DNA of 64,000 nucleotides from the NCBI RefSeq assembly GCF_024223415.1, contig NZ_CP100500.1; one strand, written 5' to 3'. A program made the translations under genes and the position numbers. Numbering within the stretch: position 1 is the first letter of the stretch; every line of letters begins with the position of its first letter. A model generated the notes under the pieces. The model did not search any database. It was not told the DNA's origin and saw only the letters and a list, made by a program, of their open reading frames with translations. Below, one piece after another: positions 57,001 through 64,000 of the stretch. This DNA comes from Escherichia coli. Lineage in GTDB: Bacteria > Pseudomonadota > Gammaproteobacteria > Enterobacterales > Enterobacteriaceae.

Positions 57001-57252
57001 TTATCGGTTTTGGCTACGCAGCATAGTACAAAACGGACAGGTGCATCCCGGAATGGGGGAGGCGTCACATGTCCCTGTGATGGTTGTTCCGGGTAATGCA
57101 CTGTGTGGGGCATAAAAATGTCCGATAATTTTACTTTCTACCGCAGTTAGTTGATTCGTTGGTCCTGGTAGCACATTGGGCGAGGGTTTAAATGCCAGGC
57201 AACTGAAGGATGATGTTGCAAGGGAGATAGCGAGAATATTTCTGATTTTCAT
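57001..57252 (-). CDS. Small secreted cysteine-rich protein (moron candidate)
   Basis: From ATG 57252: MKIRNILAISLATSSFSCLAF... signal peptide; six Cys in mature part. Confidence 0.35.
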   Translation of the reverse strand: MKIRNILAISLATSSFSCLAFKPSPNVLPGPTNQLTAVESKIIGHFYAPHSALPGTTITGTCDASPIPGCTCPFCTMLRSQNR

Positions 57253-57403
57253 TTGATGATGCCTCTGTGTGAAATGACGGTAAACGACGCACTTGTGCCG
57301 GCACATAATAGCAAGCATCAGAATAGATCAGATTCGATTCTTGCTGTAAGTGATAATTATTCTCGTTTTTTTCGGGTCCTTTCCGGCGATCCAACAGGTT
57401 ACG

Positions 57404-57415
57404 GGGCGTCGACCT
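57404..57415 (+). other. cosN cohesive-end site (lambda-type)
   Basis: GGGCGTCGACCT, one mismatch from lambda GGGCGGCGACCT; flanking CTCGCG(C)GTTTTCGCTATTTATGAAAATTTTCCGG also matches lambda cos. Confidence 0.75.
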
Positions 57416-57449
57416 CGCGCGTTTTCGCTATTTATGAAAATTTTCCGGG

Positions 57450-57560
57450 ATCCATGTCCGGTTTCTCTGCAAGTTAACTATATGAAAAATATAAAAACAT
57501 GCTTTCTGCGAACCGGACATGTGCAAAAAATGTACAAACAAACCGGACATATGCGTGCGT
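57450..57560. promoter_or_regulatory. cosB-like terminase-binding repeats
   Basis: Three copies of CCGGACAT(G/A)TG core (one inverted) between cosN and terS. Confidence 0.5.
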
Positions 57561-57627
57561 TTGCATAAAGTTGCTCGCAAGATGCATGTTTAAAACGCAT
57601 GAGGGGAGATTTTTTGCGAGGTGAACA

Positions 57628-58137
57628 GTGGCTACGCAGACTGAAGTTGCCAGGCATTTGAGTCTGACCGATCGCCAGCTTCGCAGACTGCAGAAATTGC
57701 CGGGTGCCCCGATATCGAATAAGCGAGGGCAACTGGATCTGGATGCCTGGCGTGATTTTTACATATCGTATCTGAGAAGAAGTAAAAACGATGTGCCTGA
57801 TGGCGATAGCGAAGACGACTATGAGGAGAAATTGCTTATTGCCAGATGGGAACTGACAGCAGAACAGGCTGTTACACAGCAGTTAAAAAATGAGGTGTCA
57901 AAAGGAAAACTTATTGACACCGGATTCTGTATTTTTGCCCTCAGCAAGCTGGCAATGGCGTTATCCAGTACGCTTGATTCCATCCCTTTATCCATGCAAC
58001 GACAGTTTCCTGATTTAACACCGCGCCATCTTGACCATCTGAAAACCCTTATTGCGAAGGGGGCAAATCAGTGTGCGCGGGCAGGGGATAAATTACCGGA
58101 TTTACTCGATGAATATATCAGAGCAACAACTGAATAA
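57628..58137 (+). CDS. Terminase small subunit (Nu1-like)
   Basis: 169 aa; C-terminal region resembles lambda Nu1 (FPDLTPRHLDHLK... vs lambda FPELENRHVDFLK). Confidence 0.85.
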   Translation: MATQTEVARHLSLTDRQLRRLQKLPGAPISNKRGQLDLDAWRDFYISYLRRSKNDVPDGDSEDDYEEKLLIARWELTAEQAVTQQLKNEVSKGKLIDTGFCIFALSKLAMALSSTLDSIPLSMQRQFPDLTPRHLDHLKTLIAKGANQCARAGDKLPDLLDEYIRATTE

Positions 58138-60037
58138 TATGATGAGTGCTGTCACAACAGCATTACAGCCCCTGATAAGGGCATTGCCGGTGACGGCAGT
58201 TGAATGGGCTGATCAAAATTATTATCTGCCTAAAGAATCTTCATATGGTGAGGGAGAATGGAAAACGCTGCCGTTCCAGATCGCCATCATGAACTGTATG
58301 GGCAACGATCTGATTCGCACTGTTAACCTGATTAAATCTGCCCGTGTTGGTTATACAAAGATGTTGCTGGGGGTGGTCGGGTATTTTATTGAGCATAAAT
58401 CCCGAAACAGTCTGCTTTTTCAGCCCACGGATTCTGCCGCTGAAGATTTTATGAAGTCTCACGTGGAGACGACGATTAGGGACGTGCCATGCCTGAAAGA
58501 CCTTTCCCCATGGCTGGGTCGTAAACATCGTGATAATACCCTCACGCTGAAACGCTTTTCATCGGGCGTCGGTTTCTGGTGCCTGGGCGGCGCTGCCGCC
58601 AAAAACTACCGTGAAAAATCCGTGGACGTGGTCTGCTATGACGAACTCTCATCGTTTGAACCTGATGTTGAAAAAGAGGGCTCGCCAACCCTGCTGGGGG
58701 ATAAGCGTATTGAGGGCTCTGTATGGCCAAAATCCATTCGCGGCTCGACGCCTAAAATCAAAGGCTCCTGCCAGATCGAAAAAGCCGCTAACGAGTCGGC
58801 ACATTTCATGCGTTTTTATGTGCCCTGTCCGCACTGTGGGGAGGAGCAGTATCTGAAATTTGGTGATGATGCCTCGGCTTTCGGTCTTAAGTGGGAGAAG
58901 AATAAGCCAGAAAGTGTTTTCTACCTTTGTGAGCATCATGGCTGTGTGATCCATCAGTCTGAGCTTGACCAGAGTAACGGGCGGTGGATCTGTGAAAACA
59001 CGGGGATGTGGACCCGTGACGGTCTGACGTTTTTCAGCGCCCGGGGTGATGAAATTCCGCCGCCGCGCTCCATCACTTTCCATATCTGGACGGCGTACAG
59101 TCCGTTCACCACCTGGGTACAGATAGTCTATGACTGGCTGGATGCACTGAAAGATCCCAACGGCCTGAAAACCTTTGTGAACACCACGCTGGGCGAGACC
59201 TGGGAAGAGGCCGTGGGCGAAAAACTCGATCACCAGGTACTGATGGATAAGGTTGTGCGTTACACGGCGGCGGTGCCTGCCCGGGTGGTTTATCTGACGG
59301 CGGGCATTGACTCGCAGCGAAACCGTTTTGAGATGTATGTCTGGGGATGGGCTCCGGGAGAGGAAGCCTTTCTGGTGGATAAAATCATCATTATGGGACG
59401 TCCCGATGAGGAAGAGACGCTGTTACGTGTGGATGCGGCGATCAACAAAAAATACTGCCATGCAGACGGAACCGAAATGACCATTTCCCGTGTCTGCTGG
59501 GACATCGGGGGGATCGATGGCGAAATCGTTTATCAGAGGTCAAAAAAACACGGTGTTTTCCGGGTGCTGCCGGTAAAAGGCGCATCTGTCTATGGCAAGC
59601 CGGTGATCACCATGCCAAAAACCCGCAATCAGCGGGGCGTGTATCTGTGTGAAGTGGGGACGGACACCGCAAAAGAAATTCTCTATGCCCGTATGAAAGC
59701 CGCTCCCACGCCTGCGGATGAATCCACGTCGTATGCCATCCGTTTTCCTGATGATCCGGAGATTTTTTCGCAGACAGAGGCGCAGCAACTGGTCGCGGAA
59801 GAGCTTGTGGAGAAGTGGGAAAAAGGAAAGATGCGTCTGCTGTGGGATAACAAAAAGCGGCGTAACGAAGCGCTGGACTGCCTGGTGTATGCCTACGCGG
59901 CATTACGTGTGTCCGTGCAACGCTGGCAGCTTGATCTGGCTGTACTGGCAAAATCCCGGGAAGAAGAGACGACCCGGCCAACCCTTAAAGAACTGGCAGC
60001 GAAGCTGTCCGGAGGAGTGAATGGTTACAGTCGCTGA
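58109..60037 (+). CDS. Terminase large subunit (gpA-like)
   Basis: MNISEQQLNN...TAVEWADQNYYLPKESSYGEGEWKTLPFQIAIMN...; 642 aa. Confidence 0.92.
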   Translation: MNISEQQLNNMMSAVTTALQPLIRALPVTAVEWADQNYYLPKESSYGEGEWKTLPFQIAIMNCMGNDLIRTVNLIKSARVGYTKMLLGVVGYFIEHKSRNSLLFQPTDSAAEDFMKSHVETTIRDVPCLKDLSPWLGRKHRDNTLTLKRFSSGVGFWCLGGAAAKNYREKSVDVVCYDELSSFEPDVEKEGSPTLLGDKRIEGSVWPKSIRGSTPKIKGSCQIEKAANESAHFMRFYVPCPHCGEEQYLKFGDDASAFGLKWEKNKPESVFYLCEHHGCVIHQSELDQSNGRWICENTGMWTRDGLTFFSARGDEIPPPRSITFHIWTAYSPFTTWVQIVYDWLDALKDPNGLKTFVNTTLGETWEEAVGEKLDHQVLMDKVVRYTAAVPARVVYLTAGIDSQRNRFEMYVWGWAPGEEAFLVDKIIIMGRPDEEETLLRVDAAINKKYCHADGTEMTISRVCWDIGGIDGEIVYQRSKKHGVFRVLPVKGASVYGKPVITMPKTRNQRGVYLCEVGTDTAKEILYARMKAAPTPADESTSYAIRFPDDPEIFSQTEAQQLVAEELVEKWEKGKMRLLWDNKKRRNEALDCLVYAYAALRVSVQRWQLDLAVLAKSREEETTRPTLKELAAKLSGGVNGYSR

Positions 60038-60227
60038 ACTGCAGGCGCTGCGTCAGGCGCGCCTTGATTTATTAACCGGTAAACGGGTGGTGTCTGTCCA
60101 GAAAGATGGTCGCAGAATTGAATATACGGCGGCTTCTCTGGATGAGCTTAACCGGGCGATCAATGATGCGGAGTCGGTACTGGGGACAACCCGACGTCGC
60201 CGTCGTCCGCTGGGAGTGAGGTTATGA
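60021..60227 (+). CDS. Head-tail joining protein (gpW-like)
   Basis: 68 aa between terminase and portal. Confidence 0.8.
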   Translation: MVTVAELQALRQARLDLLTGKRVVSVQKDGRRIEYTAASLDELNRAINDAESVLGTTRRRRRPLGVRL

Positions 60228-61816
60228 AAAGAACGCCTGTCCTGATTGATGTGAACGGCGTTCCGCTTCGTGAGAGTCTCAGCTACAACGGGGGCGGCGC
60301 AGGATTTGGCGGGCAAATGGCGGAGTGGTTGCCACCGGCGCAGAGTGTCGATGCGGCCCTGCTGCCCGCGTTGCGTCTGGGGAATGCCCGGGCAGATGAT
60401 CTGGTGCGCAATAACGGAATAGCGGCTAATGCGGTGGCCCTGCATAAGGATCACATAGTCGGGCATATGTTTCTGATCAGCTACCGTCCGAACTGGCGCT
60501 GGCTGGGGATGCGGGAGACCGCAGCAAAAAGCTTTGTCGATGAGGTGGAGGCGGCCTGGTCGGAATACGCCGAAGGGATGTCTGGCGAGATCGACGTGGA
60601 AGGAAAACGCACGTTCACGGAATTTATCCGGGAAGGCGTGGGCGTTCATGCGTTTAACGGCGAAATCTTTGTGCAGCCGGTCTGGGATGCGGAGACTACG
60701 CAGCTGTTTCGTACGCGTTTTAAAGCCGTGAGTCCGAAACGGGTGGACACGCCAGGATACGGTTTGGGGAACCGCTTTCTGCGGGCCGGGGTGGAGGTCG
60801 ATCGGCATGGACGGGCCGTTGCGTACCATATCTGTGAGGATGATTTTCCGCTCTCTGGTAGTGGACGATGGGAACGGATCCCGCGTGAACTTCCCACCGG
60901 GCGTCCGGCCATGCTGCATATTTTCGAGCCGGTTGAGGACGGGCAGACCCGTGGGGCTAATCAGTTTTACAGCGTCATGGAACGGCTGAAAATGCTCGAT
61001 TCCCTGCAGGCAACACAGCTTCAGTCAGCCATAGTGAAGGCGATGTATGCAGCGACGATTGAAAGTGAACTTGATACCGAAAAGGCCTTTGAATATATCG
61101 CCGGTGCGCCGGAGGGGCAGAAGGATAATCCGCTTATTAATATTCTGGAGAAGTTCTCCAGCTGGTATGACACGAATAACGTGACACTGGGCGGTGTCAA
61201 AATTCCGCACCTTTTCCCCGGTGATGATCTGAAACTACAGACTGCGCAGGATTCAGACAATGGATTTTCTGCGCTTGAACAGGCGCTGCTGCGGTATATC
61301 GCCGCCGGTCTTGGCGTTTCCTACGAACAGTTGTCCCGTGATTACTCGAAGGTCAGCTATTCAAGTGCCCGCGCCTCCGCCAATGAGTCGTGGCGCTATT
61401 TTATGGGGCGGCGAAAATTTATTGCGGCCCGGCTGGCCACGCAGATGTTTTCCTGCTGGCTGGAAGAGGCTCTTCTGCGGGGGATTATTCGTCCGCCACG
61501 GGCGCGTTTTGATTTTTATCAGGCGCGTTCATCCTGGTCACGGGCAGAGTGGATTGGAGCCGGAAGAATGGCCATTGACGGGCTCAAGGAGGTCCAGGAA
61601 TCGGTGATGCGCATTGAGGCCGGACTGAGCACGTATGAGAAAGAGCTGGCGCTGATGGGTGAGGATTATCAGGACATTTTCCGCCAGCAGGTCAGGGAAT
61701 CTGCAGAGCGGGAAAAAGCCGGACTCTCACGTCCGGTGTGGATAGCGCAGGCGTATCAGCAGCAGATAGCGGCGAGTCGCAGGCCGGAAGAGGAGACAAC
61801 ACCACGTGAGACGTAA
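60224..61816 (+). CDS. Portal protein (gpB-like)
   Basis: 530 aa, lambda head-gene order. Confidence 0.88.
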   Translation: MKRTPVLIDVNGVPLRESLSYNGGGAGFGGQMAEWLPPAQSVDAALLPALRLGNARADDLVRNNGIAANAVALHKDHIVGHMFLISYRPNWRWLGMRETAAKSFVDEVEAAWSEYAEGMSGEIDVEGKRTFTEFIREGVGVHAFNGEIFVQPVWDAETTQLFRTRFKAVSPKRVDTPGYGLGNRFLRAGVEVDRHGRAVAYHICEDDFPLSGSGRWERIPRELPTGRPAMLHIFEPVEDGQTRGANQFYSVMERLKMLDSLQATQLQSAIVKAMYAATIESELDTEKAFEYIAGAPEGQKDNPLINILEKFSSWYDTNNVTLGGVKIPHLFPGDDLKLQTAQDSDNGFSALEQALLRYIAAGLGVSYEQLSRDYSKVSYSSARASANESWRYFMGRRKFIAARLATQMFSCWLEEALLRGIIRPPRARFDFYQARSSWSRAEWIGAGRMAIDGLKEVQESVMRIEAGLSTYEKELALMGEDYQDIFRQQVRESAEREKAGLSRPVWIAQAYQQQIAASRRPEEETTPRET

Positions 61817-63311
61817 TCTTTCACACATTATTGCCGCAGCATTCAATGAACCGCTGCTTCTGGAGCCCGCCTATGCGCGGGTTTTCTTTTGCGCGCTCGG
61901 GCGCGAGATGGGGGCAGCAAGTCTTTCGGTACCACAACAGCAGGTACAGCTTGATGCTCCCGGAATGCTGGCTGAAACGGACGAGTACATGGCCGGAGGT
62001 AAACGACCGGCCCGTGTTTACCGGGTGGTGAACGGTATTGCTGTACTGCCGGTGACCGGCATGCTGGTGCACCGGCTGGGTGGTATGCGGCCATTTTCCG
62101 GAATGACAGGCTATGACGGCATTGTCGCCTGTCTTCAGCAGGCAATGGCGGACACCGCTGTCCGGGGCGTACTGCTGGACATTGACAGTCCGGGCGGGCA
62201 GGTCGCAGGCGCGTTTGACTGCGCTGACATGATTTACCGCCTCCGTCAGCAGAAGCCGGTCTGGGCACTGTGCAATGACACGGCCTGTTCTGCAGCCATG
62301 CTGCTGGCGTCGGCCTGCTCCCGACGGCTGGTTACCCAGACATCCCGTATCGGCTCCATTGGCGTGATGATGAGCCATCTCAGCTATGCCGGTCATCTGG
62401 CGCAGGCCGGTGTGGATATCACGCTGATTTATGCCGGGGCGCACAAGGTGGATGGCAATCAGTTTGAAGCCTTACCGGAAGAGGTGCGTCAGGACATGCA
62501 GCAGCGCATTGATGCGGCACACCGGATGTTTGCCGAAAAAGTGGCGATGTATACCGGGCTGTCTGTGGATGTGGTCACGGGAACAGAGGCCGCCGTTTTT
62601 GAAGGTCAGTCCGGCATTGAGGCCGGGCTGGCGGATGAATTAGTCAATGCGTCGGATGCCATCAGTGTGATGACCACGGCGCTGTACACACATGATACAG
62701 GAGGCACTATGCCGCAATTAACTGCAACGGAAGCCGCCGCGCAGGAGAACCAGCGAGTGATGGGGATCCTGACGAGTAAGGAAGCGAAAGGACGTGAACA
62801 GCTTGCCACGATGCTGGCGGGACAACAGGGCATGAGCGTTGAACAGGCCCGGGAGATCCTGGCCGCGGCGGCACCACAGCAGCCGGTGGCATCCGCGCAG
62901 AGTGAAGCCGATCGCATTATGGCGTGTGAAGAGGCGAAAGGTCGTGAACAACTGGCGGCAACGCTGGCGGCGATGCCGGAGATGACGGTGGAAAAAGCCC
63001 GCCCGATCCTGGCAGCTTCACCGCAGGCGGATGCCGGACCATCACTCCGTGATCAGATCATGGCCCTGGATGAGGCAAAAGGGGCTGAGGCGCAGGCTGA
63101 ACAGCTGGCTGCCTGCCCGGGAATGACCGTGGAGAACGCCCGGGCTGTGCTGGCTGCGGGATCAGGTAAGGCAGAACCGGTCTCTGCATCCACAACCGCC
63201 ATGTTTGAACATTTCATGGCGAACCATTCACCGGCAGCGGTACAGGGTGGCGTGCCACAGACGTCAGCAGACGGTGATGCGGACGTGAAAATGCTCATGG
63301 CCATGCCATGA
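61806..63311 (+). CDS. Capsid maturation protease/scaffold (gpC-Nu3-like, ClpP fold) with C-terminal tandem repeats
   Basis: 501 aa; C-terminal region contains three imperfect ~38-aa repeats (EAKGREQLA...M.VE.AR.ILAA). Confidence 0.8.
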   Translation: MRRNLSHIIAAAFNEPLLLEPAYARVFFCALGREMGAASLSVPQQQVQLDAPGMLAETDEYMAGGKRPARVYRVVNGIAVLPVTGMLVHRLGGMRPFSGMTGYDGIVACLQQAMADTAVRGVLLDIDSPGGQVAGAFDCADMIYRLRQQKPVWALCNDTACSAAMLLASACSRRLVTQTSRIGSIGVMMSHLSYAGHLAQAGVDITLIYAGAHKVDGNQFEALPEEVRQDMQQRIDAAHRMFAEKVAMYTGLSVDVVTGTEAAVFEGQSGIEAGLADELVNASDAISVMTTALYTHDTGGTMPQLTATEAAAQENQRVMGILTSKEAKGREQLATMLAGQQGMSVEQAREILAAAAPQQPVASAQSEADRIMACEEAKGREQLAATLAAMPEMTVEKARPILAASPQADAGPSLRDQIMALDEAKGAEAQAEQLAACPGMTVENARAVLAAGSGKAEPVSASTTAMFEHFMANHSPAAVQGGVPQTSADGDADVKMLMAMP

Positions 63312-63347
63312 AGCCAGTGCTGACCATCAATAGGAGGTTTTTACAAT

Positions 63348-63695
63348 ATGGTAACGAAAACCATCACTGAACAGCGTGCGGAAGTACGTATTTTTGCCGG
63401 TAATGATCCGGCTCATACCGCCACAGGCAGCAGCGGGATTTCCTCGCCAACACCGGCACTGACGCCCCTGATGCTGGATGAAGCCACCGGGAAACTGGTG
63501 GTCTGGGACGGACAGAAAGCCGGTAGTGCGGTTGGCATACTGGTACTGCCGCTTGAAGGCACAGAGACGGTGCTGACGTATTACAAGTCGGGAACCTTTG
63601 CGACGGAGGCAATCCGCTGGCCTGACAGTGTGGATGAACACAAAAAGGCCAACGCCTTTGCCGGTAGTGCCCTGAGTCACGCGGCGCTGCCGTAA
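63348..63695 (+). CDS. Capsid decoration protein (gpD-like)
   Basis: 115 aa; resembles lambda D (DPAHTATG..., LTPLMLDEATGKLVVWDG..., YYKSGTF...). Confidence 0.88.
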   Translation: MVTKTITEQRAEVRIFAGNDPAHTATGSSGISSPTPALTPLMLDEATGKLVVWDGQKAGSAVGILVLPLEGTETVLTYYKSGTFATEAIRWPDSVDEHKKANAFAGSALSHAALP

Positions 63696-63752
63696 CACGT
63701 TATCAGGCCACCGCGGTGGCCTGACTGATTTCTGAATGAAAGGAACTGATTT

Positions 63753-64000
63753 ATGGGATTGTTTACGACCCGCCAGTTACTCGGTTATACCGAACAAAAA
63801 GTGAAATTTCGTGCGCTGTTTCTGGAGCTGTTTTTCCGTCGTACGGTGAATTTCCATACCGAAGAGGTGATGCTGGACAAAATTACCGGAAAAACGCCGG
63901 TGGCGGCCTATGTCTCCCCGGTTGTTGAAGGAAAAGTGCTGCGTCATCGTGGTGGTGAAACCCGCGTGTTGCGTCCGGGCTACGTCAAGCCGAAACACGA
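63753..64000 (+). CDS. Major capsid protein (gpE-like), N-terminal part, runs off window end
   Basis: From ATG 63753: MGLFTTRQLLGYTEQKVKFRALFLELFFRR...YVSPVVEGKVLRHRGGETRVLRPGYVKPKH resembles lambda E N-terminus. Confidence 0.8.
   Translation, partial: MGLFTTRQLLGYTEQKVKFRALFLELFFRRTVNFHTEEVMLDKITGKTPVAAYVSPVVEGKVLRHRGGETRVLRPGYVKPKH

What the first reader, a model, noticed from the sequence alone, without database searches (positions are those of the whole stretch)
57404..57560. Lambda-type cos site with near-identical cosN and three terminase-binding repeats
GGGCGTCGACCT plus its flanks nearly matches the lambda cohesive-end region, and three CCGGACAT-core repeats (one inverted) lie between it and the terminase small-subunit gene. 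This marks the packaging module as lambda-like and potentially functional. Combined with lambda-like A, W, B, C, D and E but different early and accessory regions, it shows the prophage is mosaic.
Basis: partly seen in the sequence, partly recalled or inferred. Interest (0 to 1): 0.3.

Follow-up and report, generated by a model that had tools for sequence, protein, structure and literature searches.

The report
Prophage cos site, non-lambda terminase specificity
This is a real lambda-type DNA-packaging start site (cos) of a phage-21-like E. coli prophage; that makes it an ordinary kind of feature, but its terminase-binding repeats and its small terminase subunit belong to a common class that has not been characterised, and its cohesive end carries a rare G-to-T change.

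Summary
cosQ (57374-57380) lies 30 bp before the nick, as in lambda. The 12-nt cohesive end (57404-57415, GGGCGTCGACCT) matches lambda at 11 of 12 bases. Three CATGTCCGGTT repeats follow at 57453-63 (+), 57511-21 (-) and 57541-51 (-), upstream of a Nu1-family small terminase gene (57628-58137).

The head genes are of the phage 21 type (95-98% amino-acid identity; 53-66% to lambda). A 746-bp cassette (57445-58190) is unrelated to phage 21. It holds cosB, TerS and the first ~27 TerL codons.

The repeats are very probably TerS sites:
- R3 lies at nt 50-60.
- R2 is inverted exactly 57 bp away in all 10 relatives with a complex cosB, from several enterobacterial genera. This is the phage 21 spacing.
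- An IHF-like site lies between them.
- TerS residue 20 (Arg versus Asp/Asn/Thr) covaries perfectly with one repeat base (G versus T) in 14 loci.

Unlike lambda and 21, the third repeat points the same way as R2.

The T at nt 6 is rare (about 15 of 5426 E. coli genomes). It is shared with a satellite (PICI) lineage that carries near-identical TerS-less copies of this cosB. Whether this particular copy still works is not shown.

The parts
57374..57380 (+). cosQ (GGGTCCT), the packaging-termination subsite
   Evidence: Identical to lambda and 21, and 30 nt from its first base to the nick as in lambda. Invariant in 47 distinct relatives. The function is inferred from lambda genetics (PMC4669245).
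57402..57417 (.). cosN. The cohesive-end sequence is 57404-57415 (GGGCGTCGACCT), flanked by the conserved CG dinucleotides. A rare T sits at nt 6 (57409).
   Evidence: 11 of 12 bases match lambda, 21 and PhiR12. Unique in the window. T6 is rare: 15 of 5426 complete E. coli genomes, and 7 IMG/VR contigs against more than 120 with G6.
57433..57447 (+). I2-like block (TATGAAAATTTTCCG), part of the conserved stretch nt 17-44
   Evidence: Aligns with the IHF I2 site annotated in phage 21 record M81255. Nearly invariant in relatives.
57453..57463 (+). R3-equivalent TerS site (CATGTCCGGTT), genome nt 50-60
   Evidence: Same position as R3 of lambda and 21 (nt 50-65). Invariant core in 47 relatives. 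Present in all cross-genus relatives.
57475..57487 (-). I1-like IHF site (TTTCATATAGTTA on the - strand; 7 of 9 consensus positions)
   Evidence: Relatives carry an 8/9 or 9/9 match to WATCAANNNNTTR at the same offset from R3 and on the same strand in 6 of the 8 cross-genus relatives with a complex cosB. In the window the match is weak. Assigned by homology.
57511..57521 (-). R2-equivalent TerS site (CATGTCCGGTT on the - strand), inverted relative to R3
   Evidence: The R3-R2 distance is exactly 57 bp in all 10 class-A loci with a complex cosB, and equals that of phage 21.
57541..57551 (-). Third repeat, 'R1' (TATGTCCGGTT on the - strand), 30 bp from R2 and in R2's orientation
   Evidence: The CCGGACAT core is invariant in 47 relatives. 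Orientation matches R2 in PhiR12, Klebsiella P0010 and E. kobei P0036. The repeat is absent in three Salmonella-type relatives, P0014, E. coli P0013 and the Citrobacter relative. Satellite copies are conserved up to this core and diverge immediately after it.
57552..57627 (+). Spacer between R1 and TerS, with the Shine-Dalgarno GAGGTG. It is 29 bp longer than in most relatives.
   Evidence: Only 3 of 47 distinct upstream sequences share the long form.
57628..58137 (+). Small terminase subunit (TerS, Nu1 family), 169 aa, GTG start
   Evidence: Pfam PF07471 at 67.9 bits, covering residues 49-150 only. 46% identical to lambda Nu1 over the C-terminal 92 aa, with no BLASTP similarity in the N-terminal ~70 aa. 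Predicted N-terminal winged helix-turn-helix. RefSeq relatives annotate the same ORF.
58109..60037 (+). Large terminase subunit (TerL, gpA family), 642 aa. It overlaps TerS by 29 nt.
   Evidence: Pfam GpA_ATPase plus GpA_nuclease. 95% identical to phage 21 TerL over 626 aa, but the first ~27 codons are not 21-like.
57445..58190 (+). Packaging-specificity cassette (cosB + TerS + TerL N-terminus) with no similarity to phage 21, flanked by 95-96% identical DNA
   Evidence: blastn of the window against phage 21. The matches are 57235-57444 and 58191-64000 only.

Best explanation
This is the cos site of a lambdoid prophage whose head module is of the phage 21 type. The expected mechanism is as follows.

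1. The small terminase subunit (TerS) binds, through an N-terminal winged helix-turn-helix, to the inverted pair R3 (57453-63) and R2 (57511-21).
2. IHF bends the DNA at a site between them, which brings the two repeats together.
3. This anchors the large subunit (TerL) so that it makes staggered nicks 12 nt apart at cosN. The result is 5' cohesive ends GGGCGTCGACCT (57404-57415).
4. Packaging runs rightwards through TerS, TerL and the head genes, and ends at the next cosQ-cosN on the concatemer.
5. The third repeat (57541-51) is an optional accessory site.

What is shown: the sequence anatomy, its conservation, its covariation with TerS, and the predicted fold of TerS. What is inferred from lambda and 21 biology: binding, bending, nicking and the direction of packaging.

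The recognition part (cosB, TerS, TerL N-terminus) is a swapped-in cassette of a specificity class different from lambda, 21, N15/Monarch and Gifsy-1. The T at nt 6 is a rare allele shared with co-resident PICI-type satellites, and it probably does not abolish cutting.
For: Anatomy and conservation
- cosQ, cosN and I2 are conserved in sequence and spacing with lambda and 21.
- R3 lies at nt 50-60, where lambda, 21 and N15 have R3.
- R2 is inverted exactly 57 bp from R3 in all 10 class-A loci with a complex cosB, from E. coli, Klebsiella, Salmonella, Citrobacter and Enterobacter. Phage 21 has the same spacing.
- An IHF consensus match of 8-9 out of 9 positions lies at one fixed offset in 6 of the 8 cross-genus relatives with a complex cosB.

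Covariation with TerS
- TerS helix-2 residue 20 is Arg in the 5 loci whose repeats read ATGTCCGG. It is Asp, Asn or Thr in the 9 loci whose repeats read TTTCCGG or CTTCCGG.
- Among IMG/VR loci with a lambda-type cosN, each TerS N-terminal class has its own triple repeat at the same positions.

TerS fold
- The TerS model has mean pLDDT 77, and about 80 over the N-terminal 50 residues.

Evidence that the class works
- Isolated phages PhiR12_1 to PhiR12_5, with recorded hosts MG1655 or E. coli C, carry the same cosB and a TerS whose N-terminal 76 aa are 98.7% identical.
- Satellites keep TerS-less copies of this cosB that are conserved exactly through R1.

Tolerance of T6
- The phiARM81ld record starts GGGCGTTAGACC.
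- Two Salmonella relatives have A at nt 6.
- A satellite lineage is fixed for T6 and occurs at up to 5 places per genome.
Against: - No experiment exists: binding, nicking and the virion DNA ends are all inferred.
[quoted passage not shown] Lambda genetics finds that half sensitive and under selection (PMC4669245, section read).
- The I1 match in the window is only 7 of 9 positions.
- The third repeat carries A instead of G (TATGTCCGGTT).
- In two genomes that carry the same ompW prophage with an identical cos core, the prophage is inactivated: the portal is truncated and the tail genes are deleted in GF4, and an IS66 element sits in TerL in 24A16CRGN010. The lineage may therefore be decaying.
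- The window ends 240 nt into the capsid gene, so the completeness of the prophage is unknown.
- The residue-20/base covariation may rest on one or a few evolutionary events.
Confidence: 0.82

Rival explanations
1. The site has the anatomy of a cos but is a dead relic. The G-to-T change at nt 6, the weakened I1 and R1, or defects elsewhere in the prophage mean that it is no longer cut or packaged.
For: - T6 is rare and lies in the cosN half that lambda genetics finds sensitive.
- Relatives of this ompW prophage are broken in independent ways.
- A rem pseudogene and a truncated ORF are annotated in those relatives.
Against: - In the window TerS, TerL, W, B, C and D are all full-length.
- T6 is fixed in a multi-copy satellite lineage at both of its cos sites.
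- T6 occurs with at least 4 cosB classes.
- nt 6 varies naturally in relatives: A6 in Salmonella, T6 in phiARM81ld.
- Single mismatches in cohesive ends are tolerated in lambda/N15 hybrids (PMC4669245).
Confidence: 0.22
2. The three repeats are not terminase sites. They are chance repeats or binding sites for another protein, for example a late-gene regulator.
For: The 8-mer CCGGACAT alone is not over-represented in the whole window: 4 found against 1.9 expected. No binding data exist.
Against: - Three copies lie within 99 bp at the positions of R3, R2 and R1 of lambda and 21.
- The cores are invariant in 47 relatives.
- The R3-R2 spacing is a fixed 57 bp across genera.
- One repeat base covaries with TerS residue 20.
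- Each TerS class has its own repeat.
- Satellites retain the repeats without the TerS gene.
Confidence: 0.04
3. The segment from cosN to R1 in this prophage was imported by recombination from a co-resident PICI-type satellite, or exported to it. On this reading T6 and the unusual cosB haplotype are a satellite signature rather than a change that arose in the phage.
For: - The window's nt 1-147 differ by 2 nt from satellite copies (L091, and L231 in strain GF4) but by at least 11 nt from all other class-A prophages apart from two G6 relatives (L080, L190: 3 nt) and one T6 contig (L062/L092: 2 nt).
- One satellite left-flank haplotype is T6 in 12 of 12 strong matches in complete genomes.
- GF4, B771 and Ch1 carry both elements.
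- Left-flank haplotypes combine freely with cosB classes, so cosN is a recombination junction.
Against: - The direction of transfer cannot be told.
- Two G6 prophages with the same haplotype exist (L080, L190).
- Co-occurrence may reflect clonal descent of the host strains.
Confidence: 0.45

Closest known systems
Phage 21 cos and terminase (Jouyvirus; records M81255 and OL657228)
   Same: - cosQ, cosN and I2 are 93-95% identical in DNA.
- Subsite order is R3-I1-R2-R1, with R3 at about nt 50 and a 57-bp R3-R2 spacing.
- TerL (from about codon 28), W, portal, protease/scaffold and decoration protein are 95-98% identical.
- Even the repeat core is similar: CATGTCGG in 21 against CATGTCCGG here.
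   Different: - cosB, TerS and the first ~27 TerL codons (57445-58190) are unrelated in DNA.
- TerS is 40% identical, and only in its C-terminal part.
- The recognition helix is DRQLRRLQK, against PRTIERWQS in 21.
- R1 is inverted relative to 21's R1 and lies about 10 bp closer to R2.
- nt 6 of the cohesive end is T.
Phage lambda cos (cosQ-cosN-cosB with R3, I1, R2, R1) and gpNu1/gpA terminase
   Same: - Same architecture and spacing, with 11 of 12 cohesive-end bases identical.
- TerS C-terminal half is 46% identical and TerL is 66% identical.
- The TerS N-terminus is predicted to have the same winged-HTH fold.
   Different: - The R sequences (CGTTTCC...) and the recognition helix are unrelated.
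- There is no detectable sequence similarity in the DNA-binding domain: BLASTP finds none, and hhalign gives probability 4.8%.
- R1 has the opposite orientation.
- The head proteins are only 53-66% identical.
Escherichia phages PhiR12_1 to PhiR12_5 (PV340549-PV340554)
   Same: - Same cosB class, with R3, I1, R2 and R1 in the same order and orientation.
- The N-terminal 76 aa of TerS are 98.7% identical.
- DNA is 92.5% identical over 57336-59200.
- They are the only isolated E. coli phages in the 50,697-record collection with this TerS domain at more than 60% identity.
   Different: - Canonical G at nt 6.
- R1 reads CCGGACATGACCGGTT (quasi-palindromic).
- The spacer to TerS is 29 bp shorter.
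- The left flank is different.
N15-type 'simple' cosB, and Aeromonas phage phiARM81ld
   Same: Distant relatives of this TerS domain (51-58% identical: phiARM81ld and EcoM-705R4; also P0101 and P0086) have a related R3 (TTTCCGGTTCCGGTT) at about nt 52.
   Different: Those have a single R3 and no I1, R2 or R1, and TerS starts about 26 bp after R3. The window has the complex tripartite form.
PICI (EcCI) cos sites and Rpp redirection (Fillol-Salom 2019; Murialdo & Feiss 2022, PMC9026076)
   Same: - Same cosQ and cosN.
- Some PICI-like satellites carry a copy of this very cosB.
   Different: The window's cos is followed by TerS, TerL and head genes, so it belongs to a phage. Its cosB is tripartite. 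It does not resemble the single GTGACACCACCACC site that precedes the Rpp-type gene in the satellites examined.

Membership tests
Lambda-like cos, complex type (cosQ-cosN-I2-R3-I1-R2-R1) | 12-nt cohesive-end sequence with strong identity to lambda's, flanked by conserved CG dinucleotides | tested here: met
   GGGCGTCGACCT matches 11 of 12 bases, with ACG before and CGCG after.
Lambda-like cos, complex type (cosQ-cosN-I2-R3-I1-R2-R1) | cosQ (GGGTCCT) at a fixed distance upstream of the nick | tested here: met
   57374-57380, 30 nt to the nick as in lambda and 21.
Lambda-like cos, complex type (cosQ-cosN-I2-R3-I1-R2-R1) | R3 TerS site at about nt 48-65, at a critical distance from cosN | tested here: met
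   The repeat lies at nt 50-60. The cosN-R3 distance is conserved within about 1 bp in relatives.
Lambda-like cos, complex type (cosQ-cosN-I2-R3-I1-R2-R1) | IHF site I1 between R3 and R2 | tested here: inconclusive
   7 of 9 consensus positions in the window. Six of the 8 cross-genus relatives with a complex cosB have 8-9 of 9 at the same offset and strand. IHF binding was not tested.
Lambda-like cos, complex type (cosQ-cosN-I2-R3-I1-R2-R1) | R2 inverted relative to R3 | tested here: met
   57511-21 on the - strand. The 57-bp spacing is constant in 10 loci and equals that of phage 21.
Lambda-like cos, complex type (cosQ-cosN-I2-R3-I1-R2-R1) | R1 in the same orientation as R3 (R2 opposite to both) | tested here: not met
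   The third repeat, 57541-51, is on the - strand like R2. The same holds in PhiR12, Klebsiella P0010, E. kobei P0036 and the satellite copies. In the majority form a one-mismatch reading in R3's orientation overlaps it, but that reading is absent in the window.
Lambda-like cos, complex type (cosQ-cosN-I2-R3-I1-R2-R1) | Virion DNA ends are 5' 12-nt overhangs produced at this site | not testable with these tools
   This needs induction and end sequencing.
Nu1-family small terminase (Pfam PF07471) | Profile match above the curated threshold | tested here: met
   67.9 bits against a cut-off of 30, but only residues 49-150 align to profile positions 62-163.
Nu1-family small terminase (Pfam PF07471) | N-terminal winged helix-turn-helix DNA-binding domain of the Nu1 type | tested here: met
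Nu1-family small terminase (Pfam PF07471) | Gene lies directly upstream of, and overlaps, a gpA-type TerL | tested here: met
   29-nt overlap. TerL has the GpA_ATPase and GpA_nuclease domains. The TerL N-terminus was swapped together with TerS.
Lambda or phage 21 packaging specificity | R sequences and TerS recognition helix match those of lambda (CGTTTCC; RTIQNWQE) or 21 (CATGTCGG; RTIERWQS) | tested here: not met
   The repeats read CATGTCCGGTT and the helix reads RQLRRLQK. Cross-packaging was not tested.
Gifsy-1 cos class | R sequences of the CAGATCCGTTCTT type and a lambda/21-like TerS N-terminus | tested here: not met
   The Gifsy-1 cos and TerS were read directly and belong to a different class.
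PICI cos (Rpp-dependent) | Single R3-like site, followed by rpp, with no terminase genes | tested here: not met
   The window has a tripartite cosB followed by TerS and TerL.

The most novel reading that the evidence does not exclude
The cosB-TerS-TerL(N) cassette would be an uncharacterised lambda-like packaging specificity, present in about 6% of complete E. coli genomes. It would have three distinguishing features:

1. A simple readable recognition code. TerS Arg20 would read the G:C pair at nt 53 of ATGTCCGG; Asp or Asn at residue 20 would go with T:A in TTTCCGG.
2. A third site that is inverted relative to the lambda/21 paradigm.
3. Direct exploitation by PICI-type satellites. These satellites end in two inverted cos sites of different specificity classes, for example class A with class D, 536 bp apart. 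They would be packaged by mimicking the helper's cosB rather than, or in addition to, Rpp redirection. The rare T6 cohesive end would mark one such helper-satellite pair.
Probability: 0.45. Interest if true: 0.55.

Novelty: new member of a known kind. Interest (0 to 1): 0.33.

Why it matters
For annotation:
- It fixes the physical genome ends of this prophage type at 57403|57404.
- It shows that the prophage is a phage-21-type head module carrying a swapped packaging-specificity cassette. This is the same modular logic (cosB with the TerS N-terminus; the TerS C-terminus with the TerL N-terminus) that lambda/21 hybrids established experimentally.

For phage biology:
- Class A is common in E. 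coli prophages: 326 of 5426 complete genomes hold the cos plus TerS segment. It is absent from the studied model phages.
- It offers a natural series of TerS helix variants paired with repeat variants. That series would allow a direct test of how small terminases read DNA.
- The shared rare cohesive-end allele, and the TerS-less cosB copies in satellites, bear on which prophages can mobilise which islands.

In itself, however, a cos site upstream of Nu1/A homologues in a lambdoid prophage is expected and ordinary.

Tried and rejected
- Gifsy-1 class: rejected. One relative (P0022) has Gifsy-1's cohesive end GGGCGGCAGCGT, so I asked whether this is the Gifsy-1 class. Reading Gifsy-1 itself showed a different cosB (CAGATCCGTTCTT) and a lambda/21-like TerS.
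- Sequence homology of the TerS N-terminus to lambda Nu1: not detected. BLASTP finds none, phmmer against PDB sequences gives no significant hit, and hhalign gives probability 4.8% although the alignment is in register with the HTH. Only the predicted fold supports the relationship.
- Literature: the held library has no paper that mentions the CATGTCCGG motif together with cosB, and none on the PhiR12 phages.
- Source genome and completeness of the prophage: not achieved. No single complete genome matched both the cos segment and the head genes as one intact prophage.
- PICI cos: considered and rejected, because TerS, TerL and the head genes follow the site.
- Contig L092, which joins a satellite left flank to class-A TerS: treated as a possible assembly chimera across the shared cos repeat. 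It is not used as independent evidence.

Full report

Yes. The window reads ...CGGGTCCTTTCCGGCGATCCAACAGGTTACG|GGGCGTCGACCT|CGCGCGTTTTCGCTATTTATGAAAATTTTCCGGGATCCATGTCCGGTTTC.... An alignment with lambda, phage 21 (M81255, OL657228) and phage PhiR12_1 gives the following:
- cosQ (GGGTCCT, 57374-57380) lies 30 nt before the nick.
- The cohesive-end sequence (57404-57415) differs from GGGCGGCGACCT only at nt 6 (57409, T).
- The I2 block CTATTTATGAAAATTTT is conserved.

The 15-mer around cosN is unique in the window, against 0.02 expected by chance.

The repeat core CCGGACAT occurs at 57454-61 (-), 57513-20 (+) and 57543-50 (+). As an 11-mer it reads CATGTCCGGTT at 57453-63 (+) and 57511-21 (-), and TATGTCCGGTT at 57541-51 (-). 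That is three of the window's five hits with up to one mismatch, all within 99 bp.

**2. What follows the site**

- A 169-aa ORF (GTG at 57628 to 58137) scores 67.9 bits on Pfam Phage_Nu1, but only over residues 49-150.
- Its C-terminal half is 46% identical to lambda Nu1 and 40% identical to 21 gp1. The N-terminal ~70 residues give no BLASTP alignment.
- It overlaps a 642-aa gpA-type TerL.
- W, a lambda-family portal, an S49 protease/scaffold protein and a D-type decoration protein follow.

**3. The head module is phage 21's, with a swapped specificity cassette**

Against phage 21 the proteins are 95% (TerL, over 626 aa), 98.5% (W), 97.5% (B), 95% (C) and 97% (D) identical. Against lambda they are only 53-66% identical.

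At the DNA level the window matches phage 21 at 95-96% over 57235-57444 and 58191-64000, and not at all in between. The unrelated 746 bp are exactly cosB, TerS and the first ~27 TerL codons. The TerL N-terminus here is identical to PhiR12's at 49 of its first 50 residues and is unlike 21's.

This is the unit that lambda/21 hybrid genetics defines as carrying packaging specificity: the TerS N-terminus reads cosB, and the TerS C-terminus binds the TerL N-terminus. That rule is established knowledge, summarised in PMC4669245 and PMC9026076.

The early region matches Stx-phage-like sequences in patches, 33-39% coverage at about 88% identity. So 'mosaic' is correct, and it is normal for lambdoid prophages.

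**4. Are the repeats terminase sites?**

Four independent lines say yes.

(a) Position.
- The first repeat occupies nt 50-60, where lambda, 21 and N15 have R3.
- The second repeat is inverted, 57 bp further on, as in phage 21 (R3 at 50-65, R2 at 107-122).

(b) Conservation.
- 80 IMG/VR loci encode a 99%-identical TerS.
- Their 47 distinct upstream sequences keep cosQ, cosN, I2, the three repeat cores and the block between R3 and R2, while the sequence around them varies.

(c) Comparison across genera. I fetched the DNA upstream of TerS homologues that are 43-81% identical, from Klebsiella, Salmonella, Citrobacter, Enterobacter kobei and metagenomes.
- All 10 loci with a complex cosB have R3 and R2 exactly 57 bp apart.
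- Six of the 8 cross-genus loci with a complex cosB have an 8/9 or 9/9 match to the IHF consensus WATCAANNNNTTR at one fixed offset and strand. The window has 7/9 there.
- The third repeat is optional. It is present in the window, PhiR12, Klebsiella and E. kobei, and absent in the Salmonella-type relatives, P0014, E. coli P0013 and the Citrobacter relative.
- Wherever the third repeat is present it points the same way as R2.

(d) Covariation.
- TerS residue 20, in predicted helix 2 (RQLR-R-LQK), is Arg in the 5 lineages whose repeats read ATGTCCGG.
- It is Asp, Asn or Thr in the 9 lineages whose repeats read TTTCCGG or CTTCCGG.
- Ignoring phylogeny, the association has p of about 5e-4. The number of independent switches is unknown, and wing residue 36 covaries as well.
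- More broadly, loci with a lambda-type cosN fall into at least five classes by TerS N-terminus. Each class has its own triple repeat at the same positions.

**5. The TerS DNA-binding domain**

Sequence methods do not link it to Nu1. hhalign gives probability 4.8%, although the alignment is in register with the HTH.

The fold is therefore of the Nu1/Rpp type. The positions that discriminate lambda from 21 (residues 20 and 24) correspond here to Arg19/Arg20 and Lys23.

**6. Is this specificity class known?**

- It is not lambda, 21 or Gifsy-1. I read Gifsy-1's cos and TerS directly.
- It is not the N15 simple type either. However, distant relatives of this domain have a single R3-like TTTCCGGTTCCGGTT, with TerS starting about 26 bp later. 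These are Aeromonas phage phiARM81ld, EcoM-705R4 and two metagenomic contigs.
- Among 50,697 phage records only PhiR12_1 to PhiR12_5 carry the domain at high identity.
- The held literature has nothing on the motif.
- The class is nevertheless common: 326 of 5426 complete E. coli genomes hold at least 80% of the 1.2-kb cos plus TerS segment.

**7. The T at nt 6**

It is rare:
- 1 of about 79 class-A IMG/VR loci.
- 15 of 5426 complete genomes.

Several observations argue against lethality:
- T6 occurs with at least four cosB classes and several left flanks.
- nt 6 is A in two Salmonella relatives, and T in the phiARM81ld record.
- A PICI-like satellite lineage is T6 in 12 of 12 strong genome matches, with up to 5 places per genome.

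In strain GF4, which also holds the window-type ompW prophage with an identical cos core, this satellite sits at tRNA-Pro/yejM. It ends in two inverted cos sites, both T6. Its class-A cosB differs from the window's nt 1-147 by 2 nt. Apart from two G6 relatives (L080, L190: 3 nt) and one T6 contig (L062/L092: 2 nt), all other class-A prophages differ by at least 11 nt. Recombination between the prophage and the satellite at cos is the simplest account. The direction of that exchange is open.

**8. Is this copy functional?**

The genes visible in the window are intact. In two of the four complete genomes that hold this T6 cos, the same ompW prophage was examined:
- In GF4 the portal is truncated and the tail genes are deleted.
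- In 24A16CRGN010 TerL is interrupted by an IS66-family element, while the rest of the head and tail genes are present.

The window stops 240 nt into the capsid gene. I put the chance that this cos can still be cut and packaged by a cognate terminase at about 0.6-0.7. I put the chance that it is a cos of the described anatomy at more than 0.9.

**9. Verdict**

This is a correct and essentially ordinary finding: the cos site of a lambdoid prophage. Its specifics are modestly interesting:
- an uncharacterised but widespread TerS/cosB specificity class, inserted as a cassette into a phage-21-type head module;
- a third repeat in the 'wrong' orientation;
- a rare cohesive-end allele shared with satellites.

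Noticed in passing
L088 (IMG/VR) 9534(+)/10305(-); L231 (E. coli GF4, NZ_CP172217) 12066(+)/about 12601(-); also L093, L104, L110, L112, L119, L125, L136, L138-L140, L147, L149, L150, L152, L153, L165, L167, L192, L209: PICI-like satellites end in two inverted lambda-type cos sites 536-880 bp apart. These satellites encode an integrase, AlpA, a RepA-type helicase, SSB, an E-like capsid protein and a D-like decoration protein. The cosB parts of the two sites face each other and belong to different specificity classes. The pairings seen are A/D (536 bp, no gene between), E/D (771 bp) and E/A (751 bp) with an Rpp-type gene between, and 21/C and B/C (879 bp) with a small winged-helix gene between. 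This could let one island use helpers of two specificities. I found no description of it in the papers read.
   Followed up: partly
E. coli complete genomes, hits H108-H119; window 57409: The rare T at nt 6 of the cohesive end is tied to one satellite left-flank haplotype (...GGCATGTGGACCCGTTACG). All 12 strong genome matches are T6, with up to 5 places per genome. Three of the four genomes that carry the window-type T6 prophage also carry this satellite.
   Followed up: partly
IMG/VR loci L086-L212: Haplotypes of the cosQ-to-cosN spacer combine freely with at least five cosB/TerS classes, so the mosaic junction lies at cosN itself. Two further classes, which may also be undescribed, have their own R repeats in the lambda arrangement. 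Class C has TerS starting MKSHLMNKKNMAKS... and repeats GGTGGTGGT/GGTTGGTGT. Class D has TerS starting MAFLLNKSDMASS... and repeats GGTTGTTGT.
   Followed up: partly
window 52686-52761 and 52763-52839 (+): Two adjacent tRNA genes lie in the late-regulatory region of the prophage, downstream of the Q antiterminator in annotated relatives. One has anticodon CAT and is annotated tRNA-Ile in RefSeq relatives. The other is tRNA-Lys (TTT).
   Followed up: no
window 57001-57318 (-): A 105-aa ORF with a signal-peptide-like start (MKIRNILAISLATSS...) ends about 85 bp before cosQ. Its 5' part is 95% identical to the DNA left of cos in phage 21. It has no Pfam match, and nothing is annotated at this position in the two RefSeq relatives looked at.
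   Followed up: no
L227 (GF4) and L228 (24A16CRGN010), the relatives of the window prophage at ompW: The same prophage lineage is integrated next to ompW and has decayed independently in two strains: a deletion from the portal through the tail genes in one, and an IS66-family insertion in TerL in the other. A rem pseudogene is shared by both.
   Followed up: partly
L092 (IMG/VR metagenome contig 3300008491_000088): This contig joins the satellite-type left flank to a T6 cos, the window-type cosB and class-A TerS. It is either a real hybrid or an assembly chimera across the shared ~150-bp cos repeat.
   Followed up: no
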